A stretch of DNA of 64,000 nucleotides from Candidatus Spongiihabitans sp. Lineage in GTDB: Bacteria; Pseudomonadota; Gammaproteobacteria; Arenicellales; Poriferihabitantaceae. Positions within the stretch are counted from its first letter, which is position 1, and every line of letters starts with the position of its first letter. Shown piece after piece: positions 17,389 to 62,350 of the stretch. The stretch lies in NCBI GenBank assembly GCA_965237725.1, contig OZ250151.1, forward strand, positions 2,435,086 through 2,499,085, read 5' to 3'. Position numbers and translations under genes: made by a program. The notes under the pieces were generated by a model. It did not search any database. It worked only from the letters and a program-made list of their open reading frames with translations, and was not told the DNA's origin.

Positions 17389-17400
17389 CAATTTGCAGTC

Positions 17401-18162: not shown

Positions 18163-18192
18163 TTTTACGAAACTCTAAAATAATTTCTGCCA

Positions 18193-19152: not shown

Positions 19153-19179
19153 GCTCGTTCCGAATAAAAATGCGTCAAA

Positions 19180-27187: not shown

Positions 27188-27335
27188 TAAAATCCATTGT
27201 TTTCTGAATAACAGTGATTATTAACCATGTCATGCCAGTGGCGCAATCGGTTATACCGAGGTCGCGCCATGGCCTGTGTTACAACCTGCATCACCCCATA
27301 CTCCATGTTTCGATCAAGTAACTAACAACCAATAC

Positions 27336-28868: not shown

Positions 28869-28928
28869 TCTGTTCGAAACCAGAGATCATGGCCTGAATC
28901 AAGACTTGTGCCAGGCCTCGATCGGACT

Positions 28929-29384: not shown

Positions 29385-29414
29385 TAATAGCTGGACCTGG
29401 GATGCATCCCAGAA

Positions 29415-30377: not shown

Positions 30378-30431
30378 GGCAGAAGTGTAACCAGCCGAGT
30401 TGGAACTAGCCAGCCCTGGCCAGCGCTACAA

Positions 30432-32450: not shown

Positions 32451-32451
32451 T

Positions 32452-32844
32452 TTAGTCAGCGTCGGTTAAAACAGGAAGATCGTGATAATCACTCTTGTCT
32501 TCGATAAATATATTTTTTTCGGTGATTAATCCAGTAGGCTTATCCACAGTTCCCGCTGTAATGCTGATGGAATCCGTACCGTTTCTCTGCCAGAACAAAC
32601 TGCTTCCGCAACGATTACAAAATCCGCGGCGTGCGTCCGTCGAAGAATCATACCAATGCAGAGTGTCTTCGCAAGTTAACTCGAAATTATCCATAGCGAT
32701 GCTGGTGGCAGCAAAATGATGTCCAGTGGTTTTTTGGCACTGAGTACAAAAACAGTTAGTAACCGGACGACATGGACCGGTTAATCTGTATCGAACGCCT
32801 TCACACAAACAGCCCCCAGTTCGTACTTCAACATTTTCAGCCAT
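32452..32844 (-). CDS. GFA-family (glutathione-dependent formaldehyde-activating enzyme / CENP-V-like) zinc protein
   Basis: 130 aa. GGCLCEGVRY..., CFCTQCQK and FCNRCGS cysteine clusters of the GFA domain. Its stop lies 1 bp from the RACo start. Confidence 0.85.
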   Translation of the reverse strand: MAENVEVRTGGCLCEGVRYRLTGPCRPVTNCFCTQCQKTTGHHFAATSIAMDNFELTCEDTLHWYDSSTDARRGFCNRCGSSLFWQRNGTDSISITAGTVDKPTGLITEKNIFIEDKSDYHDLPVLTDAD

Positions 32845-32881
32845 TGAAAATACCTGTAGTTATACTTCGTGTTGAGGAAAT

Positions 32882-33784
32882 TTAGGCCCGACGTCTGCGA
32901 CGGTTAGACCGGACACCGCCGGCACCGGTATTCTCTGCTGCTGGATCACGATATTTTTTCAACCACTTGACACAATTATTATCATGTCCCATGACAACAT
33001 CCGCAGCCATGACACCCTGCATGACTTCTTCGTGCATGGGATTGGTTATTGCTGAGGTCATACCAGAGCCGATAGCCATGCTGAGAAAATGCCCGTCCAT
33101 GCCCTTTCGGTTGGGAATACCAAAGCTGAAATTGGATGCACCACAGGTTGTATTCACTTTCAATTCTTCGCGCAGCCGCTTAACCAGATGCAAAACCTGC
33201 CGTCCCGCGCTGTTTACCGCGCCCACCGGCATAACCAGCGGATCGACAACGATGTCGCTGTAATGAATGCCATGGTCCGCTGCACGTTCGATAATTTTCT
33301 TGGCCACATCAAATCGCTCGTCGGGATTTTCTGAAATCCCGGCCTCATCATTAGATATAGCAACTACCGCGCAGTTATATTTTTTAACTAACGGCAGCAC
33401 CACTTCCAGACGCTCGTCTTCACCGGTCACCGAGTTCAGCAGCGGTTTGCCCTGATAGGCTTCCAGTCCGGCTTCGAGGGCGGCCACAATTGAGGAGTCA
33501 ATGGACAACGGTACGTCGGTGATAGATTGCACTAGCCGGATCGCTTCTGCAAGAATCCTGGGTTCATCGGCCAGGGGAATTCCGGCATTGACGTCGAGCA
33601 TTTTAGCACCCGCGGCCACCTGGGCCAGTGCATCACTTTCTACCCGGCTATAGTCACCATTCTTCATTTCCTCAGCGAGAATTTTCCTCCCGGTGGGGTT
33701 TATACGTTCACCAATAATTACAAATGGCTGATCGTATCCAATTCTTAGTTCTTTGGTTGCTGAACTGATAACCGTATCTGTCAT
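32882..33784 (-). CDS. Methyltetrahydrofolate:corrinoid methyltransferase (pterin-binding domain; MtgA/MetH-module-like)
   Basis: 300 aa. Pterin-binding TIM-barrel blocks (IGERINPTG, MLDVNAG, LSIDSS, LLNSV, GASNFSFG) and a basic tail SNRRRRRA. Confidence 0.85.
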   Translation of the reverse strand: MTDTVISSATKELRIGYDQPFVIIGERINPTGRKILAEEMKNGDYSRVESDALAQVAAGAKMLDVNAGIPLADEPRILAEAIRLVQSITDVPLSIDSSIVAALEAGLEAYQGKPLLNSVTGEDERLEVVLPLVKKYNCAVVAISNDEAGISENPDERFDVAKKIIERAADHGIHYSDIVVDPLVMPVGAVNSAGRQVLHLVKRLREELKVNTTCGASNFSFGIPNRKGMDGHFLSMAIGSGMTSAITNPMHEEVMQGVMAADVVMGHDNNCVKWLKKYRDPAAENTGAGGVRSNRRRRRA

Positions 33785-33828
33785 GCTTCTACTCTGATAA
33801 TAATGTTGCTGTAATGGTGTTACTTAAC

Positions 33829-33994
33829 TATGGAACCTCTGAACAAGTCATGACCGATCAAATTGAGTCCAAAATAATCAATATCGTCGTTAAAAAATCT
33901 CGGAATAGCCCTGCTATTGCTACGATGTTTTGCCTTGATCTTGATCATTTTGATTCTCAATTTGATTCGCCCAAACTTGTTCAGAGGTTCCCTA
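33829..33994. mobile_element. MITE-2: same family as MITE-3 but in opposite orientation, TA-flanked
   Basis: TA-TGGAACCTCTGAACAAGTC ... AACTTGTTCAGAGGTTCCC-TA. The reverse complement aligns along most of its length with MITE-3 (gggcgaatcaa, aaatgatcaagatcaaggcaaaa, tcgtagcaatagca, tgatcggtcatgacttgttcagaggttcc). Confidence 0.7.
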
Positions 33995-34079
33995 AATCTA
34001 CCCAGGCGCTATCGCCAAAATGTGTCTGAATATTGCCCGTTTTAATTTCGCTACACTGTCTCAATAGCGCCTCAAAATA

Positions 34080-34394
34080 TCAGGATTGGGCTGTGTTGTC
34101 CTCCTTGTTGCCATGATTTCGGATCAATGCCATTAATCTATCCTTGTCATATTCCGCTTCGAGTCGCGCGGCTTCCGCTTCAGCTTCCCCACGAAGGTCG
34201 TCGCCACAATCCACGGCGACTCTTTTCCACTCTTCGAGATAGGCATCCGAGCCCATTAGTCCGGCGCGCATGGCTGCGCGATCGATGGCATCAGCAAATC
34301 GCTCGGTAAGCTCAACTTTTTCAGAAACCCGGCGCTCTTTGGCCATAACCTGGGCTGGAATATCGCGCCAGTAAACGGTAATCAGTTTTGCCAT
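34080..34394 (-). CDS. Small virulence-factor-domain-like protein (unknown function; recurrent companion of DUF1638/corrinoid genes)
   Basis: 104 aa. The N-terminus MAKLITVYWRDIPAQVMAK matches my memory of this small family. Sits inside the corrinoid operon. Confidence 0.5.
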   Translation of the reverse strand: MAKLITVYWRDIPAQVMAKERRVSEKVELTERFADAIDRAAMRAGLMGSDAYLEEWKRVAVDCGDDLRGEAEAEAARLEAEYDKDRLMALIRNHGNKEDNTAQS

Positions 34395-34454
34395 TATTTA
34401 TAATCTCCTCTTAAAATATTGTTGTGGATAGTGGGTAGTAATTATTCTCATCAG

Positions 34455-35090
34455 CTATCCATTAGAAGGCTGGGGTTGTTTATGACTTCCAATTTTCACC
34501 GCCAAGGCAGATTGAAAATGATCATCGCCTGTAAAAATTCGTTGATATTCCAGGTCAAGATAATCAGCAGCTTCACGGGCCTTTTTATCTATGTCCTTAT
34601 CATCCAGCTGGGCGAGGTAAATCAACTTCTTGTAATTGCCGAAAAACTGCTGCTTTAACACCGGAAAACGGTCGAGTCCCAGGCCTTTTATCACCAGCCG
34701 ATCAAAATGGTTTGCCAAGAAATCGGTTAAATAAAATGTGCCCAACTCTGCCTCATGAAGCTGGTTAAAAACCTTTGCGCCGGAAAACATCTCATAACAA
34801 TGGGCGCCAGGTAAACGCTGAATACCTTCTTTTTCCAGCATCGAATCCAGCAATCCACCGGTACCGCAGTCAGAATAGGCCACAAACATTTGTTGATAGT
34901 CATTGCGATTTTCAACAATTTTCGCTTGCACCTCTCCAGGAATTTTCTGGGGATGATTATGCAATTCTGCGGGCAGGCACTGGATATCCATATGATCCCA
35001 GTTGTTCAGGGCTTTTATCCGCACGAGCTCGTGGGCCAATGCACCACAGGCGATAATCAAAACCCGATTTGAAAGCAGCTGGTCCGACAT
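34455..35090 (-). CDS. DUF1638 domain protein
   Basis: 211 aa. NRVLIIACGALAHEL N-terminus and a CGTGG block. Typical partner of MttB/corrinoid clusters. Confidence 0.7.
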   Translation of the reverse strand: MSDQLLSNRVLIIACGALAHELVRIKALNNWDHMDIQCLPAELHNHPQKIPGEVQAKIVENRNDYQQMFVAYSDCGTGGLLDSMLEKEGIQRLPGAHCYEMFSGAKVFNQLHEAELGTFYLTDFLANHFDRLVIKGLGLDRFPVLKQQFFGNYKKLIYLAQLDDKDIDKKAREAADYLDLEYQRIFTGDDHFQSALAVKIGSHKQPQPSNG

Positions 35091-35134
35091 AGTAAACGAC
35101 CTCTACCGAGATACCCCGAATTAATATGCAGCAA

Positions 35135-35212
35135 TTTCAGCAGTGCTGAAAGGTCCACCGGAAAAAATATTTTCCGGTGTTGCCTGAAGTCAAGTCCGGG
35201 GCAATTGCCCCG
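35135..35212 (-). promoter_or_regulatory. Three consecutive perfect palindromes/hairpins in the corrinoid-gene/DUF1638 intercistronic spacer
   Basis: TTTCAGCA-G-TGCTGAAA (35135-35151); CACCGGAAAA-aata-TTTTCCGGTG (35156-35179); CGGGGCAATTGCCCCG (35197-35212). The sequences are directly visible; their function is inferred. Confidence 0.3.
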
Positions 35213-35244
35213 TCCAAATTCTACGAAGTGAGTGCCGCCAGATT

Positions 35245-35943
35245 TTAGGCGGCTCGCTTTTCCGCCATTTTTGCCTGAGCGGTCTCCACTGCCACTGCAG
35301 CGTCCCGACAGTAGGCATCAGCACCAATTGCGGCACCAAATTCTTCGTTAAGTGGCGCCCCGCCAACCAATACGATGTAGTCATCGCGCATACCCTTTTC
35401 AACCAGGGTATCGATTACAACTTTCATATAGGGCATGGTTGTGGTCAACAGCGCAGACATACCAATGATATCGGGCTTGTGCTCCTCGATGGCGTCCAGG
35501 TAACTATCAACCGCATTATCGATACCCAGATTGATTACCTCAAACCCCGCACCTTCCATCATCATTGCCACCAGGTTTTTACCGATATCATGGATATCGC
35601 CTTTAACCGTGCCGATTATCATTTTGCCGATGGGTTCAGCGCCGGTTTCCGCCAGCAAGGGTCTGAGAATGGCCATTCCCCCTTTCATCGCATTGGCTGA
35701 CATCAAAACTTCGGGAACGAACAGAATACCGTCACGAAAGTCGATACCAACAATACGCATGCCTTCAACCAGTGCGTCGTCGAGAACCTTGCTCGCAGTC
35801 CATCCGCGGCCTAATAAAATATTTGTGCCTTCTATTATTTCTTCGCGCAAGCCATCATAAAGATCGTCGTGCATTTGTTCGACAAGCTCGTCGTCGGGCA
35901 ACGAGGATAAATCTAGATCATCATCGTTATTTTCATCTACCAT
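35245..35943 (-). CDS. Corrinoid (cobalamin-binding) methyl-carrier protein, MtgC/MttC-like
   Basis: 232 aa. B12-binding helical cap plus a Rossmann domain with the DxHxxG motif (GDIHDIGKNLV) and GMSALLTTT. Strongly acidic N-terminal extension MVDENNDDDLDLSSLPDDE. Confidence 0.9.
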   Translation of the reverse strand: MVDENNDDDLDLSSLPDDELVEQMHDDLYDGLREEIIEGTNILLGRGWTASKVLDDALVEGMRIVGIDFRDGILFVPEVLMSANAMKGGMAILRPLLAETGAEPIGKMIIGTVKGDIHDIGKNLVAMMMEGAGFEVINLGIDNAVDSYLDAIEEHKPDIIGMSALLTTTMPYMKVVIDTLVEKGMRDDYIVLVGGAPLNEEFGAAIGADAYCRDAAVAVETAQAKMAEKRAA

Positions 35944-41732: not shown

Positions 41733-41755
41733 CAGTGATTGATTAATGGTTCCCG

Positions 41756-41917
41756 GATATTGCTGCGCAATTCCGGGATGACGTCGAGGATATCGCTTCG
41801 CAATTCCGGGATGACGTCGAGGATATCGCTGCGCAATTCCGGGATGACGGTGGGGGATATTGCTGTGCGATTCTGGGATGACGGTGAGGGATATCACAGT
41901 GTGATTCCAGGAGGACG
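41756..41917. repeat. Tandem repeat, 33-34-bp unit x ~5 (GATATYGCTGCGCAATTCCGGGATGACGTCGAG)
   Basis: Units at 41756-88, 41789-821, 41822-55, 41856-89 and 41890-917 decay progressively toward the right. It begins 24 bp after the efp stop. Confidence 0.88.
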
Positions 41918-42083: not shown

Positions 42084-42752
42084 TTAATCGTTGTCATTAA
42101 GCCCAGCACCTGCACCGGCAAGGCGTGACGCTTCGCTGGCTTCCACATAAGTGCGATGGGCATAAATTTCCAGCTGCTTCCAGGATTTTAGATTTACTTC
42201 AGCATCACCAATGTTCATAGGAATGTCTTTGGTATCCGCCGATATAGAAATTTGGGTATAGCTGATTTGGCCCACCAATTTCATATCAATATCTTCTGTG
42301 TTCCCAGTTACCACAAGCACGTCGCGGTTGAGCTGCATGGTCACCGACGACCATTTCAGCGCCACAGACTGGTCCGAGGTTAACGCCGTCTGACCTAAAA
42401 ATCCTGCAGTGATTAACGGCCATGCAATGGGCCCGACCGTAATGGTTCGCTCCGCCATTGTGTTAATGCAGTCACACAGACTAATACCCGCCATAATTGG
42501 GCTAAGCACACCCCGCTGGCTGGTCCAGATTCCCTCCAGGGATTGGGGCGCATAGTCCAGGTGATGGTGATGATCGTATTCCTCAAACAATCCACATAAA
42601 CTGGTCACACCATCAAATCCATAAACATGCAACCAGCGTATGGCCTTGCCTACTTCGTCAGCGATACCCCAGGGCAGACCACAGCCTTTGGCCGCCTTGC
42701 GGCAGGTGTGTTCAATTTCGCCCAGGGAACGCATATTCTTTGACTTGCTCAA
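42084..42752 (-). CDS. Hypothetical protein (reminiscent of DUF3726-type proteins; unverified)
   Basis: 222 aa from TTG 42752, which overlaps the upstream stop, or 216 aa from ATG 42734 (MRSLGEIEHTCRKAAKGCGLPWGIADEVGKAIRWL). No catalytic motif recognised. Confidence 0.5.
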   Translation of the reverse strand: MSKSKNMRSLGEIEHTCRKAAKGCGLPWGIADEVGKAIRWLHVYGFDGVTSLCGLFEEYDHHHHLDYAPQSLEGIWTSQRGVLSPIMAGISLCDCINTMAERTITVGPIAWPLITAGFLGQTALTSDQSVALKWSSVTMQLNRDVLVVTGNTEDIDMKLVGQISYTQISISADTKDIPMNIGDAEVNLKSWKQLEIYAHRTYVEASEASRLAGAGAGLNDND

Positions 42753-44464
42753 GGTATAAGTGGCGGATAAATCCAGCCGTCGGCGTCAAATTCATTGAAT
42801 TCGTCGGGGAATGGGGCATGCTGATACATATTAATCCGCACCCAGCGATCAGATTTCGGATCAAATTTATTGGCGCCGAAGAAGGACAACTTACATCGCA
42901 ACAAGTCCACCGGCATCATGGTTGATGACAGCAGGTTGTCCTGAATTTCCGAGTAATCCAATTTGTCCGTAATCTGGATACGACGCAGGCTATGACGATG
43001 CTGGGGGTGTTTAAGCGCAAAGTTCGCAATGATTTGATCAGCACCAAACTCATCAGCATAACTTTTTAAGTCATCATATAAATTCGAAACATCCCGACCA
43101 TAGGACAATGGGTGTTCTTTCTCTGCGCCGGGCTCATCGTAGCGTTCCCCTACTCGAGGTTCGAGCTTTTCCTCGGAGTAATACCAAAACCGAGCCGAGT
43201 TTTCTTTGATTGAATAATCAATTACCAGCGCCCAGGCATATTTTTGTTTGATAATTTTCAGCGCATCAGCGATGGTCGCACTACCATCGATGGGAAAGTG
43301 CTGGGCTTCATCGATGGCCATGGTGTCCGCCAGATCATCAACAAATTCTCCGTGGGGTTCAATCACCAGGCTGACCACCATCTCCTGGCCTTCAATACTT
43401 AATGCAGATTCCGACCATTGCACCAGCTGATCCCAGGGTCGAGGCATTTTTAATCCAGGCGTTTTGACATAAGCCATCAGTTTCAACAAATCCTGTTTCA
43501 GTTCCTGGACACGCTGGTGCTGTCTTTCATCCGCGGTATTCCAGCTTTCAACACCGAGCATCATTCGGGAAATCAATTCGCTAAAACGGTTTTGGGACTG
43601 AGGATCGCTTTGTTCGATATTCCGCACCCGGGCCAGGGCAGTTTCCCGGGCCAGCATCCAGCTGTGAATCAACGACGGATGGAGAATCAGAAAGGGCGCC
43701 ATACCGAGACCGGTAGAATTGCCCACCCCCAGTCGTCGCCGCAGATCAGAATTTAATTGAATCGCCTGATCGCCGCCTTCGACCCGAGCCATGTGCTCTA
43801 CGATGTCCACCGTAAACCCGCGTATCAACCACACCGCCAGCAACTCCGAATGAAACGCAGAGCGAAATTCCGGCCGGTTGGATATGCGGTCTCGGTCACC
43901 AATGCCAAATTTGCCATTACCATAAACCGCGGTGGTGCGCATCAGATATCCCACGCTATCCAGAGATTCCGCATCGGGCTGAATACCTTTTGCCAAACAG
44001 GTTTTCACATGCTCAAACAGGCGCACACTGCGATTGGCCCGGGCCAGCACCAGTTCACTCTGGGAACAATGTCCCGCCTCCTGTTTCGGCACATTGGCGC
44101 GCAATCGTTCGATATCCTCTTCGCTGGGTATGCCATCGAACAAGGTAAATGCAGCGTCCCATTCTGTGGCAATCACTCGGTCCGAGCGTTTCTCCGGTGG
44201 CAGGTCATTGGCATAGCATATTAATGAATAGGTATTTTCCGGACCCGTAGCCTGGTAAATCGCTACACCCACGCCCTTGTGGTTCACATCCCAAACCGTG
44301 CGTTCAAATTGCCAGTCATTGTCTTTGAGTGAGCGCAACAGCGCGCGCATGAAACTTAAGCGCGTCTGATGAAAACAACCCATGCGGTCCATGCGCATGA
44401 CAACCTCAGGGGGCCGCAATGGCACCGTCTGGGTGCTGGGGTTTATAATTTCAGTTTCAGTCAA
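42749..44464 (-). CDS. Large conserved-looking hypothetical protein (571 aa), no family recognised
   Basis: A long uninterrupted ORF, soluble-looking with no TM helices, tightly coupled to the downstream 222-aa gene. Divergent from a PqqD-like gene across a 120-bp AT-rich spacer. Confidence 0.6.
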   Translation of the reverse strand: MTETEIINPSTQTVPLRPPEVVMRMDRMGCFHQTRLSFMRALLRSLKDNDWQFERTVWDVNHKGVGVAIYQATGPENTYSLICYANDLPPEKRSDRVIATEWDAAFTLFDGIPSEEDIERLRANVPKQEAGHCSQSELVLARANRSVRLFEHVKTCLAKGIQPDAESLDSVGYLMRTTAVYGNGKFGIGDRDRISNRPEFRSAFHSELLAVWLIRGFTVDIVEHMARVEGGDQAIQLNSDLRRRLGVGNSTGLGMAPFLILHPSLIHSWMLARETALARVRNIEQSDPQSQNRFSELISRMMLGVESWNTADERQHQRVQELKQDLLKLMAYVKTPGLKMPRPWDQLVQWSESALSIEGQEMVVSLVIEPHGEFVDDLADTMAIDEAQHFPIDGSATIADALKIIKQKYAWALVIDYSIKENSARFWYYSEEKLEPRVGERYDEPGAEKEHPLSYGRDVSNLYDDLKSYADEFGADQIIANFALKHPQHRHSLRRIQITDKLDYSEIQDNLLSSTMMPVDLLRCKLSFFGANKFDPKSDRWVRINMYQHAPFPDEFNEFDADGWIYPPLIP

Positions 44465-44584
44465 TTAATACGATGCCAATTTATAAAGAGTTTGATAATA
44501 TAGCGCAAATATTTTTATTGAAACCCAATTCAAAATTTACATTTAATTTTTTCTTTAATATTTTTTGAGATTAGCCAGGACAAC

Positions 44585-44896
44585 ATGAACGATACCACTA
44601 CGGTAACATTTCCAGCTACATCTATACCCAAGCAGCGTCCAGGTTATGAACTTCAGAAAACAGCTTGCTGCTATTTTTTGAAAGATAGCGAAGCTGATAA
44701 ACTGGTAAAGTTAAACGACTCCAGTGTGTTGATCTGGCAGGTATGCACCGGCGAATGGTCGGTTGGAGAAATCATTGACGTGCTCAAGGAAAGTTACCCC
44801 GATGCAGCGGATTCCATGGAAGAAGATGTCCACCGCACTCTCGATTTGTTGGTAGAGGAAGGGGTGATCGATATTCCAGATGCTGGTCTCAATTAA
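44585..44896 (+). CDS. PqqD-family protein (RiPP-recognition-element-like small peptide-binding domain)
   Basis: 103 aa. LNDSSVLIWQVCTGEWSVGEIIDVLKESYPDAADSMEEDVHRTLDLLVEEGVI fits the PqqD pattern (LN.tg..IW.l.dG..tv.eI...l...y......v..Dv..fl..L...gli). Confidence 0.7.
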   Translation: MNDTTTVTFPATSIPKQRPGYELQKTACCYFLKDSEADKLVKLNDSSVLIWQVCTGEWSVGEIIDVLKESYPDAADSMEEDVHRTLDLLVEEGVIDIPDAGLN

Positions 44897-44968
44897 ATTT
44901 TCGAGTTAAACTTTTTGAGTAAAATTGGTAAAATTTTTTCCGGGTTAAACCCAAGGAATAAACAATAG

Positions 44969-45312
44969 TGGGAGTTGGCCGATAAGCCGGGTTCTGTCGA
45001 GAACAGTTATTCATCTGGGTCGTTTGTCACCAAACGCCTCTAGCAACCTACCCGGATCCAACGCGGGCCACGCCATACGGATCCCTATTCGGTCTTGCTC
45101 CAGGTGGGGTTTACCCTGCCGCTAAAGTTACCAGTAGCGCGGTGCGCTCTTACCGCACCATTTCACCCTTACCTTATAAAAAGGCGGTATATTTTCTGTG
45201 GCACTAGCCGTCAGCTCACGCTGCCCAGGAATTACCTGGCACCTTCGCCCTATGGAGCCCGGACTTTCCTCGATATCCCGAAGGATAGCGCAACTGTCTG
45301 GCCAACTCCCGA
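44969..45312 (-). ncRNA. rnpB: RNase P RNA, bacterial type A
   Basis: The minus strand reads GGGAGTTGGCCAGACAG...GAGGAAAGTCCGGGCTCCATAGGGC...GGTAAGGGTGAAATGGTGCGGTAAGAGCGCACCGC...ACAGAACCCGGCTTATCGGCCAACTCCC. It is collinear with E. coli M1 RNA, and the P1 stem closes GGGAGTTGGCC/GGCCAACTCCC. The ends are approximate. Confidence 0.92.
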
Positions 45313-45406: not shown

Positions 45407-46336
45407 ATGTTCGCCATACCCGCAACAAAACAAACCATCGTCGTAACCCTATTGTTACTCGCTGGCCTTTTGGTCAACACCGACCTGACTTCCCTATTAA
45501 ACTGGATTCAGATATTGGGTATTTGTGTGGGCTTTGTTTATATCTGTTTTATAGTGAACATTCCCGAGGATAAAGCCGCGGCGCTTATGCGCTGGATTTT
45601 TGTTATCGGGATTGCTGCAATACTCCTGCTGATCTGGCATAGCCAGAATGCAATCGTTGCCATTTATCTTGTTGGCGCTACGTTTTTAACGGGTTATTTT
45701 ATAGCCTGCCAGTTCAATCTGACGTCAGGCCATCGCCCTTTGACAACAACAATTAGCATCGCCATTATTGTTAGCCTTATATTAATTTGCTCTCCAACCA
45801 CCATCAGTCGAATCGAAATCAGCCTGATTAACTTACCCGTCCCGAGCAAGTTCTGGCTCTACAGTGACGATGCGCGTCAGGCGCCCCATACAGTTTCAAA
45901 AGGTTTTGGTATGCCTACCATGCATGCTCTTAAAGTACATTTGAATGCAGACAATGTGGGGATTACTGAACCCATGCCTTCGATACGACTCCAGGGACGA
46001 CACGATACGTTGTTCTCCATTGATCGTATTCGATACAAATTTTTACATGTGACTGTTCACCAACTACTGGCTGACAACCTGTCCGAGATAAAGTTGGGTG
46101 AAAACAGCGATGAGGTCATCCTGGAAAAAATACCAACTGGCATATTAATCTCGGATGTGAATCAGGGGGAATCGGTGTGGCTTGATCTTCCCGACCTGGA
46201 TTCCAAAGCGATATCCACCAGCGTAATACTAAAAACCATAGTTGTGAAAGTATTTGTCTGGTTACTGGCCTGTACCGTGTTTTTTAGCTGGGCACCCGGT
46301 CTGCGGCAAGCCAGCGTAGGAGAGTCGGGAAATTGA
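45407..46336 (+). CDS. Hypothetical membrane protein (about 5 N-terminal TM helices, ~130-aa loop domain, 1 C-terminal TM)
   Basis: 309 aa. Hydrophobicity pattern only; no motif recognised. Confidence 0.55.
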   Translation: MFAIPATKQTIVVTLLLLAGLLVNTDLTSLLNWIQILGICVGFVYICFIVNIPEDKAAALMRWIFVIGIAAILLLIWHSQNAIVAIYLVGATFLTGYFIACQFNLTSGHRPLTTTISIAIIVSLILICSPTTISRIEISLINLPVPSKFWLYSDDARQAPHTVSKGFGMPTMHALKVHLNADNVGITEPMPSIRLQGRHDTLFSIDRIRYKFLHVTVHQLLADNLSEIKLGENSDEVILEKIPTGILISDVNQGESVWLDLPDLDSKAISTSVILKTIVVKVFVWLLACTVFFSWAPGLRQASVGESGN

Positions 46337-47538
46337 GTACTGTGAAAAACCTGTCCAAAAAACTGGCTATCCCCTGGTGGTACTGGATGTGGGGAATCCA
46401 CATACTGCTGGTCGGCTCGCTATATCTTTACATGTTCACCCCATACAAGACCGACTGGTTCAAGCTGATGTTTCCAACCATCAGCCTGGGCCAGGAAGAA
46501 AACTATGCCGTGTGGTGGTCGGGAATTTGTCTGTTTATTGCATCTTCGCTGTTTTATAAGATTGCCAGCGCCAATCCGACGCTTAAGTCATCCTGGAAGT
46601 GGGGGGTTTTATCCCTGGCTATGCTTGCCCTGGCCTTTGATGAAATTGGTTCGCTACATGAAGTTGTGAGTAAATTTGGTGGTTGGGAAGCGTTGATTCC
46701 CTTTGCCCTGATTTTTATCGTCGGCTTTATGGCAGCACTATTTGTTTTAGTGCGAACCCCGGGTTACCGTATTGCCGCTGTATTGATATTTCTTGGTATT
46801 GCATTGTTCGCCTCGGTAGCGCTTCTGGAATTTGTCGAACACAATCTGGAATTGACCAATCGTCAGCAAAGACGCCGCCTGCTTATCGAGGAAGGGGTTG
46901 AGTTGTTTGCGATGTCTTTGATCATCATCGCCGGCTTAATCTCGATGAAACGCGAAGGCATAACTCAACGCAGTTTGTCCGAGGTGATCGGAAACACCCG
47001 GCAGCTGTTTTTTCATCCGACACTGGTTTTTGCGTTGTTCGGAATTCAATTTGTAGCGATTAGCGGATTTGCGGTTCCCCATGCGGGGATGTTTTCTGAG
47101 GGCAATCCCGCCAGCGTGTTTCCAATTTTCATGTACTACATCCTTTCGATGATGTGTATTCACATTGGCCATGTGCAACGCAATTATGTACTGTGGTGGG
47201 GATTTGCCGGATTATTTCTGTTTACCTCGTTGTGTCAGATTCTCAGCGTCATTTCATTAATACTGCGATTGCAGTTTAATTTTTATTATTTTCTCTATCC
47301 ACCCAGCACCTGGATGGTCACCCTGATACCCATGGCCGTGCTTTGCGCCGTATTCCTTTTTAATCGCTGGATTTCGTTAAGGAAACTAATTCCGGAATTG
47401 ATTCTGGTGTTTTGTGTGATCATCTTTTTATACCCGGACAATCACTCATACATGGTTTATTTTTTATTCAGCAGCTGTACGGCATTATTTTGTTACCGCC
47501 TGCTCAACCACTACGTCCAATCTTTGGCCGACGAGTGA
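46333..47538 (+). CDS. Hypothetical polytopic membrane protein (~10-12 TM)
   Basis: 401 aa. The TTG start overlaps the upstream stop (aaTTGA); an alternative GTG lies at 46342. No motif recognised. Confidence 0.55.
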   Translation: MSTVKNLSKKLAIPWWYWMWGIHILLVGSLYLYMFTPYKTDWFKLMFPTISLGQEENYAVWWSGICLFIASSLFYKIASANPTLKSSWKWGVLSLAMLALAFDEIGSLHEVVSKFGGWEALIPFALIFIVGFMAALFVLVRTPGYRIAAVLIFLGIALFASVALLEFVEHNLELTNRQQRRRLLIEEGVELFAMSLIIIAGLISMKREGITQRSLSEVIGNTRQLFFHPTLVFALFGIQFVAISGFAVPHAGMFSEGNPASVFPIFMYYILSMMCIHIGHVQRNYVLWWGFAGLFLFTSLCQILSVISLILRLQFNFYYFLYPPSTWMVTLIPMAVLCAVFLFNRWISLRKLIPELILVFCVIIFLYPDNHSYMVYFLFSSCTALFCYRLLNHYVQSLADE

Positions 47539-53066: not shown

Positions 53067-54041
53067 TCAACTTGCAGTAAAAGATGATTCGAAAAAATTA
53101 AACCAGTTTTTACCCATCACTTTTTCGATATCCGCTTCGGAAAATCCCGCCTTCTCAAGTCCTAATACGAGATTGCTGTAGTGGGTGGAGTCGCTAAACC
53201 AATCCGGTTGTTTCGGCCAGCCGGCATTGGAAGCCGTGCCTTCACCAAAATCGGCGACCTTGCTCCATCGACCATTTCGCATCCAGGTCACCACGGCGTC
53301 TTCCTGATCCTGGCATAAATCCGAACCAATGCCGATATGATCAATTCCCATCATCTCTGCTGCTTCCCCGATCATCGCGCAAAACTGCTCCACGGTACAG
53401 TCCGGCCCATTTTTAAGATGAAATGGATACAGACTAAATCCAAGCATGCCGCCGCTCTCGCCAAGGGCTTTCATCACTGCATCTGATTTATTTCGCAATG
53501 CCGGCTCGAAAAACGTTGGGTTGGCATGAGTAATGGCAATGGGTCGTTGGGACAATTCGATGGCTTCCAGGGTGGAACGCTCGGCACTATGGGACATGTC
53601 AATCACCATACCAACCCGATTCATTTCCTGGATTATCTGTTTACCAAATCGAGTAATGCCGGGGTCGTTTTCTTCATAACAGCCCGTGGCCAGCAAGCTT
53701 TGATTGTTATAACTCAACTGCATGAAGCGCACCCCAAGGGCGTGAAAAATCTCTACCAGTGAATAATCATCTTCGATGGGAGAGCAGTTTTGAAAGCCAA
53801 AAACCACGCCGGTTTTCTTATCCTTTTTCGCCTGCAGTACCTCTTCAGCAGATCCAACTTTGGTTATCAAATCACCATACTGCTCAAATAACTGATTCCA
53901 TTTACCGATGTTGCGTAAGGTCTCCAAACAGGTTTCATGATACGCGATGGTGACATGAACACAATCCAGGTCGCCCTGTCGCATCTGTTCGAAAATTTTT
54001 CGACTCCAGTTGGAATATTGTAAACCGTCTATGGTAATCAT
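53067..54041 (-). CDS. Peptidase M19 (renal/membrane dipeptidase) family protein
   Basis: 324 aa. IDGLQYSNW N-terminus, VIDMSH, ITHANP and HIGIGSD metal-ligand blocks of the M19 amidohydrolase fold. Confidence 0.75.
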   Translation of the reverse strand: MITIDGLQYSNWSRKIFEQMRQGDLDCVHVTIAYHETCLETLRNIGKWNQLFEQYGDLITKVGSAEEVLQAKKDKKTGVVFGFQNCSPIEDDYSLVEIFHALGVRFMQLSYNNQSLLATGCYEENDPGITRFGKQIIQEMNRVGMVIDMSHSAERSTLEAIELSQRPIAITHANPTFFEPALRNKSDAVMKALGESGGMLGFSLYPFHLKNGPDCTVEQFCAMIGEAAEMMGIDHIGIGSDLCQDQEDAVVTWMRNGRWSKVADFGEGTASNAGWPKQPDWFSDSTHYSNLVLGLEKAGFSEADIEKVMGKNWFNFFESSFTAS

Positions 54042-55471
54042 GGTTTCAAGTAAGTGGTTTTGACCTGGGTATAAAACTCCGCGGCGTAGGTGCCCTGCTC
54101 TCTTGAGCCAAAACTGGAATTCTTCCGCCCACCAAATGGCACATGGTAATCCGTCCCCGAAGTTGGCAGGTTAACCATCACACACCCGGTTTTGGAATTC
54201 TTTTTGAAATCGGATGCTTTTGACAGCGACTGGGTGATGACGCTTGAAGTCAGACCGAACTCGGTATCATTCCCTAGGGCCAAAGCCTGATCATAGTCGT
54301 CGGCCTTGATCACACAGGTTATGGGACCAAACACTTCGTCCTTGTTAATCTGCATGGCATTGTTGCCATTAATAAATAATGCGGGTTGCATGTAGTGGCC
54401 AGGTGAAGCCAGTTCCAATGCTTCCCCACCGCATACCAGTTCCGCGCCCTCTTTCTTGCCAATGTCCAGATAAGCCAGGTTCTGTTTAAGCTGGGCACCG
54501 TCAACCGCAGGACCAATATTACTTTTTACATCCAGTGCATGGCCAACAACCAGTTTACCCATGGATTCTTGCATGGCTTCCACAAATTGATCATGAATAC
54601 CGGCGGTGACAATTATCCTCGAGGAAGCGGTACACTTTTGACCGGTACTACCGAAGGCGCCATTGACTGCACATGCCACTGCAGTGTCCAGATCAGCATC
54701 ATCGAGAACCACCAGGGGGTTTTTGCTGCCCATTTCCATTTGTACCTTGGTTAAGTTTTGCGCAGCAGCAACCGCTATTCGTTTGCCCGTACCCAGGGAA
54801 CCGGTGAAGGTAATTGCATCGACCTCACTGGAATTAATAATCGCCTCACCTACTTTCTTGCCCGAACCCAGAACCATATTAACCAGTCCGTCGGGCAGGT
54901 CCTGCTCGGCGATGATTTCCATTAATGCCGTACCACTGGCCGGTGTCAGATTTGCCGGCTTCCAGACCACCCCATTACCATAGGCAATGGAAGGCGCAAT
55001 TTTCCAGGCGGGTAAGGCGGTAGGGAAATTCCAAGGAGTAATGATGCCGATAACACCCATGGGTTCACGGGTTACCTGCACTTCGACTCCAGGTCGGACG
55101 GAGTCGCAAATGTCACCCATCTGACGCAGTGTCTCCCCAGCATAATAGGTAAAAAACTGACCGGCACGAAACACCTCTCCTTTACCTTCGGGCAGGGTCT
55201 TGCCTTCTTCGCGACACAACAATTCACCCAGCTCCGCACTGCGATCCATCATCGCAGTTCCGATGGCCATTAACACGTTATAACGTTGCTCGGGCCCGGT
55301 AGTTGCCCATTTTTTTTGCGCCTGGCTGGCGGCAGCAATGGCCTCTTCTACCTGGCTGGTGCTGGCCTGGGCAAAGTCACCAATGGACTCTCTCGTGTCT
55401 GATGGATTAATATTCGCTACGTTTTCTTCCCCGGCTACCCATTGACCATTGATGTAATTTTCGGTTTTCAT
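54038..55471 (-). CDS. NAD(P)-dependent aldehyde dehydrogenase
   Basis: 477 aa. ITPWNFP, FTGSLGTG, MEMGSKNP and GQKCTASSR (catalytic Cys) motifs. 4-bp overlap with the downstream dipeptidase gene. Confidence 0.9.
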   Translation of the reverse strand: MKTENYINGQWVAGEENVANINPSDTRESIGDFAQASTSQVEEAIAAASQAQKKWATTGPEQRYNVLMAIGTAMMDRSAELGELLCREEGKTLPEGKGEVFRAGQFFTYYAGETLRQMGDICDSVRPGVEVQVTREPMGVIGIITPWNFPTALPAWKIAPSIAYGNGVVWKPANLTPASGTALMEIIAEQDLPDGLVNMVLGSGKKVGEAIINSSEVDAITFTGSLGTGKRIAVAAAQNLTKVQMEMGSKNPLVVLDDADLDTAVACAVNGAFGSTGQKCTASSRIIVTAGIHDQFVEAMQESMGKLVVGHALDVKSNIGPAVDGAQLKQNLAYLDIGKKEGAELVCGGEALELASPGHYMQPALFINGNNAMQINKDEVFGPITCVIKADDYDQALALGNDTEFGLTSSVITQSLSKASDFKKNSKTGCVMVNLPTSGTDYHVPFGGRKNSSFGSREQGTYAAEFYTQVKTTYLKP

Positions 55472-55578: not shown

Positions 55579-56589
55579 ATGAGCGACATCACTCTTAGCC
55601 TAGACCAGGTCCATGAACTGGCCACGGCCACGCTGTTAGCGAATGGTTGCAATCAAGAAAACGCCACTGCGGTTGCAGATACCATAACCCTGGCCGAGCG
55701 CGACCTGTGCCATTCCCACGGTCTGTTTCGTCTCCCCGGCTATGTCGCCGCGCTCAAGAGCGGCAAGGTCAACGGCAAGGCTGAACCGAAAGTTGAGAAA
55801 CTGGCACCTGCTGTTTTACGGGTTGACGGTGACGACGGTTATGCACCCCTGGCATTAAAAGCTGCCCGGGATCCATTGGCACAATGCGCCAGTGAAAATG
55901 GCATTGCGGCAATGTCCCTGATTAAGGTACATCACTTTGCAGCATTGTGGGTTGAAATTGAATCGCTGACCGAAAAGGGATTGTGCGCCATGGCATTTAC
56001 CGCCTATATGCCCTCGGTGGCGCCCGCTGGCGGTATCAAACCTTTTTACGGTACGAATCCAATGGCATTTGGTTGGCCACGCCCAGGGAAACCGCCAATG
56101 GTATTCGACCAGGCTACGGCAACCCAGGCCAGAGGTGAAGTGATGATTGCGGCCCGGGATGGCCATGAATTGCCCCCAGGGGTTGGCATCGATAGTGAGG
56201 GCAATCCAACCACCGATCCCAACGAAGTATTGAAAGGCTGTCTACTTCCTTTTGGTGGACACAAAGGTGCTTCTATTGCCTTGATGATTGAACTGCTGGT
56301 TGGGCCATTAATTGGTGAGCGCGCGAGTTTCGAAGCCGCTGCCGCAGACAACAAGGACGGCGGCCCACCGCGAGGGGGTGAATTGATTATTGCTATTGAT
56401 CCAAAGCGGTTTGGAAACAGTGAAGATCCATTTGCCCATGCTGATCGTTTGTTCAGCGCATTGCTTGAACAGGAAGGCACCCGACTGCCCGGCGAGCGCC
56501 GGGTAAAAAACCGTGCCATCAGCGCCGAGCAAGGTATTTCTATTCCCCAGAGCCTGCATGACAAGATTCAGGAATTGATGGGCTCTTGA
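55579..56589 (+). CDS. Ldh_2-family (malate/L-lactate dehydrogenase type 2) oxidoreductase; family includes imine/pyrroline-2-carboxylate reductases
   Basis: 336 aa. HSHGLFRLPGYV, GTNPMAFGWP and FGGHKGASIALMIELL blocks. Confidence 0.85.
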   Translation: MSDITLSLDQVHELATATLLANGCNQENATAVADTITLAERDLCHSHGLFRLPGYVAALKSGKVNGKAEPKVEKLAPAVLRVDGDDGYAPLALKAARDPLAQCASENGIAAMSLIKVHHFAALWVEIESLTEKGLCAMAFTAYMPSVAPAGGIKPFYGTNPMAFGWPRPGKPPMVFDQATATQARGEVMIAARDGHELPPGVGIDSEGNPTTDPNEVLKGCLLPFGGHKGASIALMIELLVGPLIGERASFEAAAADNKDGGPPRGGELIIAIDPKRFGNSEDPFAHADRLFSALLEQEGTRLPGERRVKNRAISAEQGISIPQSLHDKIQELMGS

Positions 56590-62233: not shown

Positions 62234-62350
62234 TATCTTGTTCAATAATTTTATACGATTGTATAAAACTTTTGCCTTGCGCAATACCCCAAAAACCCTG
62301 CAATATCGGCATCTGGCAGCAAAACAGCTATTAATACGAGAATAAATTTA

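What the first reader, a model, noticed from the sequence alone, without database searches (positions are those of the whole stretch)
42084..44896. Orphan PqqD/RRE-like gene divergently paired with an unrecognisable 571-aa + 222-aa operon
Seen: a 103-aa PqqD-pattern protein (44585-44896, plus strand) faces, across a 120-bp AT-rich spacer, a tightly coupled minus-strand pair. That pair is a 571-aa soluble protein and a 222-aa protein whose start overlaps or lies within 14 bp of the upstream stop. I can place neither in a catalytic family. No pqqA/B/C/E, radical-SAM, lasso (B2/C), YcaO or HPr-kinase-like partner is present. The locus is bounded by repeat DNA on one side and rnpB on the other.

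Known: PqqD-like domains are RiPP recognition elements that bind a leader peptide and present it to a modifying enzyme.

Inference: the 571-aa/222-aa pair could be a new RRE-dependent enzyme system. Alternatively, the PqqD-like protein may chaperone a non-RiPP partner. I could not identify a convincing precursor-peptide ORF in the adjacent spacers, which weakens a classical RiPP reading.
Basis: partly seen in the sequence, partly recalled or inferred. Interest (0 to 1): 0.6.

Follow-up and report, generated by a model that had tools for sequence, protein, structure and literature searches.

The report
Homarine-catabolism gene pair with PqqD neighbour
The two "unrecognisable" genes are very probably the HomB/HomA pair that marine bacteria use to break down the algal metabolite homarine, and the small PqqD-like gene beside them is a neighbour found only in this lineage, with no known role.

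Summary
The 103-aa protein passes both the PqqD HMM test and the fold test.

The reading as an RRE-dependent enzyme system does not hold. The 571-aa + DUF3726 pair belongs to a very large, strongly conserved family. The two genes are adjacent in 76 of 80 genomic loci and are sometimes fused. Outside one Arenicellales-like lineage they occur without any PqqD gene.

In roseobacters the pair sits in LysR–aldehyde dehydrogenase–M19 peptidase–(BCCT)–571aa–DUF3726. This is the composition and order of the homABCDER homarine-catabolism operon published in 2026 (PMC13236597). The window also carries the M19 and aldehyde dehydrogenase genes 8.6 kb away, plus an Ldh_2 gene that I propose is homE. So the pair is HomB/HomA-like. 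This rests on synteny; I could not retrieve the reference sequences.

Some things are still new. The 571-aa protein has no Pfam, NCBIfam or PDB match by sequence or by fold. The DUF3726 partner has a near-invariant C-terminal tail, GAGAGLxDND. A small PqqD subfamily with three conserved cysteines sits divergently beside homB at all 9 distinct loci where it was found. Whether it works with HomBA is untested.

The parts
42749..44464 (-). 571-aa HomB-like protein: the large subunit of the pair, with a predicted fold that has no PDB match
   Evidence: ORF. No Pfam, NCBIfam or PDB hit. The exhaustive search found 1477 clusters at 50% identity. AlphaFold2 model pLDDT 84, pTM 0.86. Best Foldseek PDB hit E=1.7, TM <=0.13. 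Adjacent to BCCT or M19 upstream and DUF3726 downstream in other genomes.
42084..42752 (-). 222-aa DUF3726 protein (probable true start ATG at 42734, giving 216 aa): the HomA-like small subunit, with a near-invariant C-terminal tail EASRLxGAGAGLxDND
   Evidence: PF12525 DUF3726 E=2e-17. Directly downstream of the large gene in 76/80 loci. Natural fusions of large protein + DUF3726 exist: P0121 (809 aa), P0129 (760 aa) and L068 Pandoraea (773 aa). Tail conservation.
44494..44525 (-). Probable homBA promoter in the 120-bp spacer: TTTCAA, 17 nt, TATTAT when read on the minus strand
   Evidence: This is the only spacer element shared with a relative: L084 has the identical hexamers and spacing, and L083 only a partial match. 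Assignment as a promoter is inference; the generic promoter scan did not list it.
44585..44896 (+). 103-aa PqqD/RRE-fold protein, acidic (pI 4.2), of a lineage-restricted subfamily in which Cys29 and Cys54 are invariant and Cys28 nearly so
   Evidence: PF05402 at 47.4 bits. Below the cut-offs of the PQQ-pathway and lasso equivalogs. RRE fold confirmed. Only 42 homologue clusters, 54-72% identical. Conserved cysteines. pN 0.23-0.38 against pS of about 0.8. pI.
53067..54041 (-). M19 'membrane dipeptidase' family amidohydrolase, HomC-like
   Evidence: PF01244 E=3.5e-79. 59-61% identical to the M19 genes in roseobacter clusters and 83% to that of L007, where it lies directly upstream of the pair.
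54038..55471 (-). Aldehyde dehydrogenase, HomD-like; overlaps the M19 gene by 4 bp
   Evidence: PF00171 E=3e-155. 58-62% identical to the roseobacter cluster copies and 83% to L007.
55579..56589 (+). Ldh_2-family oxidoreductase, divergent from the aldehyde dehydrogenase; my candidate for homE (imine reductase)
   Evidence: PF02615 E=4e-97. Homologues lie immediately after DUF3726 in L025, L060, L064, L068 and L070, next to the aldehyde dehydrogenase in L007, and directly upstream of the large gene in L092. The homE assignment is inference.
44967..45309 (-). rnpB (RNase P RNA); a boundary feature, not part of the system
   Evidence: RF00010, 332.8 bits. Not next to the PqqD gene in L090, where a methyltransferase ORF overlaps the PqqD gene's end (no RNA scan was run on that locus).
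41755..41917 (.). 33-bp tandem repeat, 4-5 copies; a boundary feature between efp and the pair
   Evidence: Tandem Repeats Finder.

Best explanation
The 571-aa and 222-aa genes encode the two subunits of a HomB/HomA-type enzyme.

**What the enzyme is.** It is the specific, still biochemically uncharacterised first enzyme of the homarine (N-methylpicolinate) catabolic pathway.
- The large subunit has a fold not represented in the PDB.
- The small subunit supplies an N-terminal DUF3726 domain and a near-invariant C-terminal tail. I infer this tail reaches into the large subunit.

**Proposed pathway (inferred).**
1. HomBA opens the N-methylpyridinium ring and leaves an N-formyl-N-methyl amide.
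2. The M19 amidohydrolase (53067-54041) removes the formyl group.
3. The aldehyde dehydrogenase (54038-55471) oxidises the terminal aldehyde.
4. The Ldh_2 enzyme (55579-56589) reduces the resulting N-methyl imine to N-methylglutamate.

**Layout in this lineage.** The cluster is split. A conserved rsmI-lpoA-yraN housekeeping block separates homBA from homDC.

**The PqqD-like gene.** It is a genuine, selectively maintained RRE-fold protein.
- It is restricted to this Arenicellales-like lineage.
- It shares the 120-bp divergent promoter region with homBA.
- The enzyme family as a whole does not need it.
- Its most likely role is a lineage-specific peptide-binding accessory. Its ligand is unknown.

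**What is shown.** Family membership, adjacency and fusion, co-occurrence with M19, aldehyde dehydrogenase, BCCT, LysR and Ldh_2 genes, the PqqD fold, and the restricted distribution of the PqqD subfamily.

**What is inferred.** Identity with the published HomA/HomB, the chemistry of each step, and any PqqD-HomBA coupling.
For: **The pair is one unit.**
- The two genes are adjacent in 76/80 loci.
- Fused proteins exist.

**The context matches the hom operon.**
- M19 is present in 46 loci, aldehyde dehydrogenase in 29, LysR in 25 and BCCT in 24. All are upstream and nearly all on the same strand.
- The order is LysR-Aldedh-M19-(BCCT)-large-DUF3726.
- PMC13236597 describes homR, homD (aldehyde dehydrogenase), homC (peptidase), homT (betaine transporter), homB, homA and homE in that order in Cobetia.
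- It describes SPO3188-SPO3192 in R. pomeroyi, with homA and homB adjacent in 97.7% of 11,755 genomes and predicted to form a heterodimer.
- It reports that the homA and homB HMMs are highly specific while those for homC and homD are not.
- SPO3188 is annotated 'hypothetical protein'.

**The window carries the rest of the set.**
- M19 and aldehyde dehydrogenase orthologues, plus Ldh_2, lie at 53-56.6 kb.
- In relatives L007 and L010 they lie next to the pair or within about 1.5 kb of it.
- Ldh_2 sits at either end of the cluster. The paper reports the same behaviour for homE.

**The chemistry fits.**
- The published intermediates C7H9NO5, C6H9NO4 and C6H9NO3 and N-methylglutamate fit the proposed sequence of steps by mass balance (my inference).
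- The window also holds MttB/corrinoid systems that act on methylated amines, including betaines.

**The PqqD-like gene.**
- HMM and fold tests pass.
- It is found at 9 distinct loci, always divergent to homB: the window, L001, L083, L084, L086, L088 and L090, plus two short contigs that also carry a large-subunit homologue (P0002 with P0312, P0015 with P0297).
- The flanks differ between these loci.
- Synonymous sites are saturated.
Against: - I could not retrieve SPO3188/SPO3189 or the Cobetia proteins. No Ruegeria protein was in the top 120 hits and the paper's supplements are not held. The HomA/HomB identity therefore rests on gene order and composition, not on alignment.
- The paper says HomA has 'FAD-binding motifs'. 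I see no flavin domain in the DUF3726 protein, only a GAGAG tail that could mimic a GxGxxG motif.
- In the window no LysR regulator or BCCT transporter is adjacent to the pair.
- The four core genes span 13.4 kb, more than the 10-kb criterion used in the paper.
- Some lineages pair the same two genes with other partners: a histone-deacetylase-family gene in Anderseniella, and creatinase, PRTase and IMPDH-like genes in SAR324. Substrate range may therefore vary.
- For PqqD, the whole neighbourhood (uvrC-efp ... rsmI-lpoA) is syntenic in this order. Conserved adjacency alone does not prove a functional link, and sister lineages lost the gene with no visible change to the pair.
Confidence: 0.72

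Rival explanations
1. The PqqD-like protein is a working partner of HomBA in this lineage. As an RRE it binds a peptide segment of the enzyme by beta-strand addition, and so assists assembly, maturation or regulation. The candidate segments are the invariant C-terminal tail of the DUF3726 subunit and the disordered N-terminus of the large subunit.
For: - The subfamily is found only next to homB: 9 of 9 distinct loci, across two left-flank and at least three right-flank arrangements.
- The genes are divergent, with a short shared spacer of 120-162 bp.
- The gene is under purifying selection, at a rate between those of HomB and HomA.
- PqqD-bearing loci are spread across the large-protein tree of the clade, with L083 basal. 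This suggests an ancestral adjacency followed by losses.
- The protein is acidic (pI 4.2), so it is not a DNA-binding regulator.
- The DUF3726 subunit does carry a conserved, probably flexible terminal peptide.
Against: - The HomA tail and the rest of HomBA are equally conserved in the thousands of genomes without PqqD.
- No lineage-specific feature of HomBA was seen.
- The whole region is syntenic in these genomes.
- The neighbour-joining tree has no support values.
- No interaction test could be run.
Confidence: 0.25
2. One reading: the 571-aa/222-aa pair is a new RRE-dependent peptide-modifying (RiPP-type) enzyme system, whose leader peptide is presented by the PqqD-like protein.
For: - A genuine RRE-fold protein lies next to two proteins of unknown chemistry.
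- A 31-aa ORF (44473-44568) lies just upstream of the PqqD gene.
Against: - The pair lacks any PqqD gene in 79 of the 80 genome-contig loci (L001-L080).
- Its conserved partners are small-molecule catabolic genes and a betaine transporter.
- The 31-aa ORF is not conserved in any relative.
- The window holds no RiPP-class enzyme.
- Genetic evidence ties the operon type to homarine use (PMC13236597).
Confidence: 0.04
3. The pair is a HomBA-family enzyme, but in this organism it acts on a different N-heterocyclic or betaine-type substrate, not homarine.
For: - The family occurs with varying partner sets: histone-deacetylase-family, creatinase, PRTase, IMPDH-like and ABC-F genes.
- No homR or homT lies next to the pair here.
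- The large protein is only 50-53% identical to the roseobacter ones.
- The cluster is split in this lineage.
Against: - The window's M19 and aldehyde dehydrogenase are 58-62% identical to the roseobacter hom-cluster copies.
- Clade members L007 and L010 keep aldehyde dehydrogenase and M19 beside the pair or about 1.4 kb from it.
- In the tree the Arenicellales-like proteins group with those of a gammaproteobacterial locus (L046) that has Aldedh-M19-large-DUF3726.
Confidence: 0.18
4. The PqqD-like gene is functionally unrelated to HomBA. It is an orphan RRE kept in place by regional synteny. It may serve the two unknown membrane proteins downstream, or it may be a relic of a lost cluster.
For: - Strong synteny of the whole block in this order.
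- The membrane-protein pair co-occurs with the PqqD gene in L084 and L088, and in L086 as far as that contig reaches.
- The PqqD gene was lost in sister lineages without replacement.
Against: - The membrane proteins are absent from L083 and L090, where the PqqD gene is still next to homB.
- In the window rnpB, on the opposite strand, separates the PqqD gene from them.
- The gene is under purifying selection, so it is not a decaying relic.
Confidence: 0.3

Closest known systems
homABCDER homarine catabolic operon (Cobetia sp. OBi1 ACFLL8_11490-11520; Ruegeria pomeroyi SPO3188-SPO3192; Nat Microbiol 2026, PMC13236597)
   Same: Two adjacent orphan-family genes, one of them annotated 'hypothetical'. 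They are flanked in the same order by a peptidase-type hydrolase, an aldehyde dehydrogenase, a betaine-type transporter and a regulator. There is an optional extra gene at either end. The distribution is alpha/gammaproteobacterial and very wide. The published predicted heterodimer agrees with the natural fusions seen here.
   Different: Sequence identity to the reference proteins was not checked. In the window the cluster is split by about 8.6 kb of housekeeping genes, no homR or homT lies beside the pair, and a PqqD-like gene sits divergently next to homB. The paper as held here does not mention a PqqD-like gene.
TgnAB trigonelline ring-opening oxygenase of Acinetobacter baylyi (the analogy drawn in PMC13236597)
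   Same: A two-protein system proposed to open an N-methylpyridinium carboxylate ring, followed by aldehyde dehydrogenase and hydrolase steps. An N-methylformamido intermediate would fit the published masses.
   Different: The sequence and fold searches run here detected no flavin-reductase, Rieske or flavin-monooxygenase domain. HomBA is therefore not a member of that enzyme class; the likeness is in the role only.
PqqD of PQQ biosynthesis, and stand-alone RRE proteins such as lasso-peptide B1 (TbiB1, PDB 5v1v; 6jx3_B)
   Same: Same Pfam family and same fold of a three-stranded sheet plus three helices. Similar size and acidity.
   Different: It scores below the PQQ_PqqD and lasso B1 equivalog cut-offs. 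There is no pqqA/B/C/E, no B2/C and no precursor gene. It has its own conserved Cys-Cys and Cys motif. Its only constant neighbour is a catabolic enzyme pair.
DpkA-type ketimine reductase / N-methyl-L-amino acid dehydrogenase (Ldh_2 family, PF02615)
   Same: The window's Ldh_2 protein belongs to the same Pfam family. The imine-to-N-methyl-amino-acid reduction known for DpkA (from my own knowledge of the literature) is the step needed to make N-methylglutamate.
   Different: No activity or orthology test was done. That this gene is the published homE is my inference, drawn from its position at either end of the cluster.

Membership tests
hom operon (HomA/HomB) | homA and homB directly adjacent (97.7% of genomes in PMC13236597) | tested here: met
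   The genes overlap by 4 bp, or are separated by 14 bp with the alternative start. They are adjacent in 76/80 related loci.
hom operon (HomA/HomB) | Sequence orthology to SPO3188/SPO3189 or ACFLL8_11495/11500 | not testable with these tools
   The reference sequences could not be fetched. As a proxy, roseobacter loci that are 50-54% identical to the window's large protein have the same order, LysR-Aldedh-M19-large-DUF3726, as SPO3192 to SPO3188.
hom operon (HomA/HomB) | homC (peptidase) and homD (aldehyde dehydrogenase) co-located within 10 kb | tested here: inconclusive
   Both genes are present on the same strand, at 53067-55471. That is 8.6-11 kb from homB, and the whole set spans 13.4 kb. 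In L007 they lie directly upstream of the pair, and in L010 about 1.4 kb downstream.
hom operon (HomA/HomB) | Adjacent transcriptional regulator homR | tested here: not met
   No LysR gene lies next to either half of the cluster. The nearest (61349-62284) is divergently paired with an MttB gene.
hom operon (HomA/HomB) | Growth on homarine, or mutant phenotype on homarine | not testable with these tools
   Requires experiment.
DUF3726 (PF12525) | Pfam HMM score above the gathering threshold | tested here: met
   63.2 bits against 22.1, over residues 8-71.
PqqD / RRE (PF05402) | Pfam HMM score above the gathering threshold | tested here: met
   47.4 bits against 23.4.
PqqD / RRE (PF05402) | RRE fold: three-stranded antiparallel sheet followed by three helices | tested here: met
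   The AlphaFold2 model has strands 21-25, 30-34 and 40-43 and helices 45-53, 60-70 and 72-92. Top Foldseek hits are 6jx3_B, 5v1v_A and 5sxy.
PqqD of the PQQ pathway (TIGR03859 / NF002535) | Equivalog score above cut-off, and pqqA/B/C/E neighbours | tested here: not met
   41.7 bits against 46, and 38.9 against 101. No PQQ genes in the window.
Lasso-peptide B1 (NF033536 / NF033530) | Model score above cut-off, and B2 and C partners | tested here: not met
   19.5 bits against 80, and 16.4 against 70. No B2 or C genes in the window.
RRE-dependent RiPP cluster | A precursor peptide gene next to the RRE, conserved among relatives | tested here: not met
   The only spacer ORF (31 aa, 44473-44568) has no counterpart in L083-L088.
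RRE-dependent RiPP cluster | The RRE co-occurs with the candidate modifying enzyme across that enzyme's family | tested here: not met
   The PqqD subfamily HMM hits only the window, L001 and L083-L088 among 88 loci. L090 was added later. The other 79 genome-contig loci that carry the large gene have none.
Two-component flavin or Rieske ring-opening oxygenase (TgnAB-like) | A recognisable flavin-reductase or oxygenase domain or fold | tested here: not met
   No such Pfam or NCBIfam hit. No PDB fold match for the large subunit. No profile match for either subunit.

The most novel reading that the evidence does not exclude
An RRE/PqqD-fold protein has been recruited outside RiPP biosynthesis. In this reading it binds the near-invariant C-terminal tail of the DUF3726 subunit (…SRLxGAGAGLxDND), or the N-terminus of the large subunit, of a new-fold pyridinium-ring-opening enzyme. 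It then acts as an assembly or maturation factor. In the boldest version, the tail is post-translationally processed into part of the active site or into a cofactor.
Probability: 0.1. Interest if true: 0.8.

Novelty: new variant of a known kind. Interest (0 to 1): 0.4.

Why it matters
Homarine is one of the most abundant small nitrogen compounds made by marine phytoplankton. Its breakdown operon was described only in 2026, and the first enzyme, HomAB, has no known chemistry.

This locus adds three things:
- The large subunit has no detectable relative by sequence or fold in the PDB, so a structure would reveal a new enzyme architecture.
- The small subunit is defined by DUF3726 plus a near-invariant C-terminal tail, and the two subunits are naturally fused in some bacteria. 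This gives a ready single-chain construct for biochemistry.
- In one gammaproteobacterial lineage, related to sponge-associated bacteria, a dedicated PqqD-like protein always sits beside the enzyme. If that protein works with HomAB, it would be a rare case of an RRE domain serving a catabolic enzyme instead of a peptide-modifying one.

The result also gives DUF3726 a probable function.

If the PqqD link turns out to be mere synteny, the locus is simply another, rearranged, hom cluster.

Tried and rejected
1. **Direct link to the published proteins.**
   - The paper's supplementary tables are not held.
   - A third homologue search, seeded with the Sedimentitalea orthologue, returned no named Ruegeria protein in the top 120.
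Identity with HomA/HomB therefore stays inferential.
2. **Structure of the DUF3726 subunit.** No model was made.
3. **Remote homology.**
   - Searches against Pfam, NCBIfam, PDB sequences (single sequence and profile) and Foldseek against the PDB all came back empty for the large protein.
   - Beyond DUF3726, they were also empty for the small one.
4. **Literature.** Searches for DUF3726 and PF12525 found nothing.
5. **Precursor peptide.** The 31-aa spacer ORF is not conserved. It was rejected.
6. **PqqD as a small winged-helix regulator of homBA.** Considered because the gene is divergent and no LysR is nearby. Rejected because the protein is strongly acidic (pI 4.2).
7. **Metagenome scan for more PqqD-subfamily loci.** It gave only three hits: one duplicate, one new locus (L090) and one weak fragment.
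8. **Spacer alignment.** Apart from a promoter-like element, the spacer is poorly conserved.
9. **Generic promoter and terminator scan.** It found fewer sites than in shuffled sequence and was uninformative.

Full report
**1. The observation**

- The 571-aa ORF is at 42749-44464 (-).
- The 222-aa ORF is at 42084-42752 (-).
- The 103-aa ORF is at 44585-44896 (+).

The small minus-strand gene either overlaps the large one by 4 bp (TTG start) or begins at the ATG at 42734, 14 bp after the stop. Homologues align from the ATG.

The spacer between the divergent genes is 120 bp and 77% A+T. rnpB lies at 44967-45309 on the minus strand. A 33-bp tandem repeat lies at 41755-41917.

The 103-aa protein matches Pfam PqqD above threshold. 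It scores below the cut-offs of the PQQ-pathway and lasso-B1 equivalogs. An AlphaFold2 model built on 41 homologues has the RRE topology. Its best PDB matches are lasso B1 proteins bound to leader peptides, and PqqD itself.

The large protein has no hit in Pfam, NCBIfam or PDB sequences, either alone or as a profile. A confident model (pLDDT 84, pTM 0.86) has no Foldseek match in the PDB; the best hit has E=1.7.

The small protein carries DUF3726 at its N-terminus.

A Pfam survey of the larger ORFs across the 64 kb found no radical-SAM, YcaO, lasso, PQQ or HprK-like gene. The survey covered ORFs of at least 110-140 aa outside the 38-50 kb stretch. Within that stretch I scanned only five ORFs.

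**2. What the pair is**

The large protein belongs to a very large and well conserved family.
The top 120 are 57-78% identical, and those that carry a name are called hypothetical.
- The exhaustive search found 1477 clusters at 50% identity and no link to any other family.

In 80 species-level genomic loci, a DUF3726 gene follows the large gene directly in 76. Three of the remaining four (L035, L039, L065) are cut by contig ends.

In several bacteria the two are fused into one protein of about 770-810 aa. The DUF3726 part is C-terminal. Examples are P0121, P0129 and Pandoraea L068. The two proteins therefore act together, probably as a complex.

The DUF3726 subunit ends in a near-invariant tail, …EASRLxGAGAGLxDND-COOH. 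Close fusions keep this tail. Distant fusions have a different conserved tail.

**3. Genomic context elsewhere**

The recurrent same-strand upstream neighbours, out of 80 loci, are:

| Neighbour | Loci |
|---|---|
| M19 'membrane dipeptidase' amidohydrolase | 46 |
| Aldehyde dehydrogenase | 29 |
| BCCT betaine-type transporter | 24 |
| LysR regulator (either strand) | 25 |

About 20 roseobacter loci show the full order LysR-Aldedh-M19-BCCT-large-DUF3726. Others lack the BCCT gene.

An Ldh_2-family oxidoreductase appears at either end of the cluster.
- After DUF3726 in L025, L060, L064, L068 and L070.
- Beside the aldehyde dehydrogenase in L007.
- Directly upstream of the large gene in L092.

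More distant family members, at 41-46% identity, show the same partners.

**4. Link to the literature**

A 2026 paper (PMC13236597) defines the homarine catabolic operon homABCDER by transcriptomics, knockouts and transposon mutants. It reports the following.
- In Cobetia the locus order is homE, homA, homB, homT (glycine-betaine-type transporter), homC (peptidase), homD (aldehyde dehydrogenase), homR.
- In R. pomeroyi the genes are SPO3188-SPO3192, without homE and homT.
- homA and homB are adjacent in 97.7% of 11,755 genomes, and the proteins are predicted to form a heterodimer.
- The homA and homB HMMs are highly specific, while those for homC and homD are not.
- homE lies next to homA in half of the genomes that have it and next to homD in the other half.

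SPO3188 is annotated as a hypothetical protein.

Read from the regulator end, this is the composition and order I find around the 571-aa/DUF3726 pair. The gene next to the transporter (homB) is the large one. The next gene (homA) is DUF3726. The optional end gene behaves like the Ldh_2 gene.

I could not fetch the reference sequences. The equation large = HomB and DUF3726 = HomA is therefore an inference from synteny. I put it at about 0.9.

The paper's remark that HomA has 'FAD-binding motifs' may reflect the GAGAG tail. I found no flavin domain.

**5. The rest of the pathway in the window**

The window contains an M19 gene (53067-54041, -) and an aldehyde dehydrogenase (54038-55471, -) that overlap by 4 bp.
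- They are 58-62% identical to the roseobacter cluster copies.
- They are 83% identical to those of L007, where they lie directly upstream of the pair.

A divergent Ldh_2 gene follows at 55579-56589.

Between the two halves lies the conserved block rsmI-lpoA-yraN-BON. There are also a cytidylyltransferase-like gene, a glyoxalase, two unknown membrane proteins, rnpB and the PqqD gene. The hom set is thus split over 13.4 kb in this lineage. L013 shows a similar split.

**6. Proposed mechanism**

All of this section is my inference. It uses the intermediates published in PMC13236597.

1. HomBA opens the N-methylpyridinium ring between C5 and C6. The methyl group and an N-formyl group are retained. 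C7H9NO5 fits N-formyl-N-methyl-dehydroglutamate.
2. The M19 amidohydrolase removes formate, giving C6H9NO4. In Anderseniella a histone-deacetylase-family amidohydrolase sits in the M19 position. This fits an amide-hydrolysis step.
3. The aldehyde dehydrogenase accounts for the pair C6H9NO3 and C6H9NO4.
4. An Ldh_2 enzyme of the DpkA type reduces the N-methyl imine to N-methylglutamate. DpkA is a ketimine reductase and N-methyl-amino-acid dehydrogenase (from my own knowledge of the literature).

Without step 4 the imine could hydrolyse spontaneously. That would explain why homE is optional.

How HomBA achieves ring opening is unknown. No cofactor-binding domain is recognisable.

**7. The PqqD-like gene**

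It belongs to a small subfamily. There are 42 clusters, 54-72% identical. Cys29 and Cys54 are invariant, and Cys28 is conserved in at least 90% of members.

A subfamily HMM finds it only in the window, L001 and L083-L088 among 88 loci. L090 was added later.

- **Always beside homB.** In each of the seven distinct loci with readable context it is divergent to homB across 120-162 bp. Two short contigs (3361 and 2461 bp) carry both a subfamily member and a large-subunit homologue, judged by matching contig lengths (P0002 with P0312, P0015 with P0297). That makes nine distinct loci.
- **Varying flanks.**
  - The left flank is efp in most loci and a TPR-GT41 gene in L083 and L090.
  - The right flank is the two membrane proteins in L084, L086 and L088, as in the window, where rnpB lies between them and the PqqD gene.
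  - It is a cupin in L083, and a TylF-like methyltransferase plus a PLP decarboxylase in L090.
- **Selection.** Synonymous sites between these genomes are saturated, while pN is 0.23-0.38. The gene is therefore under selection and evolves at a rate between those of HomB and HomA.
- **History.** On a neighbour-joining tree of the large protein the PqqD-bearing loci are scattered through the Arenicellales-like clade, with L083 basal. This suggests an ancestral adjacency with later losses, for example in sponge-associated Poriferihabitaceae. The tree has no support values.
- **Not a regulator, no precursor.** The protein is acidic (pI 4.2), so it is not a DNA-binding regulator. No conserved small ORF lies in the spacer.
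- **Spacer.** The one conserved spacer element looks like the homBA promoter.

Against a functional link: the whole neighbourhood is syntenic in this order, and HomBA works without PqqD in almost all other bacteria.

**8. Verdict**

The 'unrecognisable operon' is a HomB/HomA-type enzyme of betaine-like small-molecule catabolism. It is not an RRE-dependent peptide-modifying system.

The PqqD-like gene is real and is consistently adjacent within one lineage. Its role is untested. I estimate about 0.25 that it is a HomBA accessory, about 0.3 that it is unrelated, and under 0.05 that the locus is a RiPP system.

What remains new:
- the absence of any PDB relative for the large subunit,
- the tail motif of the DUF3726 subunit,
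- the split cluster layout,
- the lineage-specific PqqD association.

Interest is moderate (0.4).

Noticed in passing
window 26213-35943 and 61349-63886: A corrinoid-dependent methyltransferase system of the kind that demethylates methylated amines, including betaines. It comprises MttB (27276-28868), RACo activase (30432-32450), a pterin-binding methyltransferase (32882-33784), DUF1638 (34455-35090), a B12-binding protein (35245-35943) and an AraC/DJ-1 regulator (26213-27187). A second MttB (62351-63886) has a divergent LysR gene (61349-62284). The region is rich in betaine-type catabolism.
   Followed up: partly
window 45407-46336 and 46333-47538 (+): Two overlapping genes for unknown proteins (309 and 401 aa) that look like membrane proteins from their sequence (not tested), with no Pfam hit. 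They are conserved downstream of the PqqD gene in L084 and L088 and, up to the contig end, in L086. They are absent from L083 and L090.
   Followed up: partly
window 41755-41917: A 33-bp tandem repeat of 4-5 copies, 85% matching, between efp and the 3' end of the DUF3726 gene. Origin and function unknown.
   Followed up: no
window 42084-42130 (C-terminus of the 222-aa protein); alignment A2: A near-invariant C-terminal tail, …EASRLxGAGAGLxDND, in DUF3726 partners from alpha- and gammaproteobacteria and SAR324. Distant fused relatives of 840-960 aa carry a different conserved tail, …LVPxxEExxLRPxxxxDPLKxF.
   Followed up: partly
L081 8980-10008; L016 and L023 upstream of the large gene: In Anderseniella a histone-deacetylase-family amidohydrolase overlaps the start of the large gene, in the position that M19 occupies elsewhere. 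An ABC-F ATPase follows DUF3726.
   Followed up: no
L054, L059, L061, L066 (SAR324 and related): Here the pair is preceded by M19 and followed by PRTase, an IMPDH/GMP-reductase-like gene and a creatinase-type M24 gene. No aldehyde dehydrogenase is present. This may be a variant pathway or a different substrate.
   Followed up: no
L083 4039-4353; L083 2-1213; L090 61-2127 and 4854-7553: In the most divergent PqqD-bearing lineage the PqqD gene overlaps a Cupin_2 gene by 4 bp (L083), or is followed by a convergent TylF-like methyltransferase and a PLP decarboxylase (L090). A TPR + GT41 (OGT-like) protein follows DUF3726.
   Followed up: partly
window 13873-20466: Several ORFs without Pfam hits lie inside a sugar/LPS-type cluster that also holds a Haem_oxygenas_2 'iron-containing redox enzyme' (15618-16352). 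The ORFs are 13873-15426 (517 aa), 16528-17388, 17401-18162 and 19180-20466.
   Followed up: no
window 44465-44584 versus P0001: The public gene call for the large protein (P0001, 549 aa) starts at Met23. Residues conserved across the family (R17, V22) lie upstream of it, so the annotated start is probably too short.
   Followed up: yes
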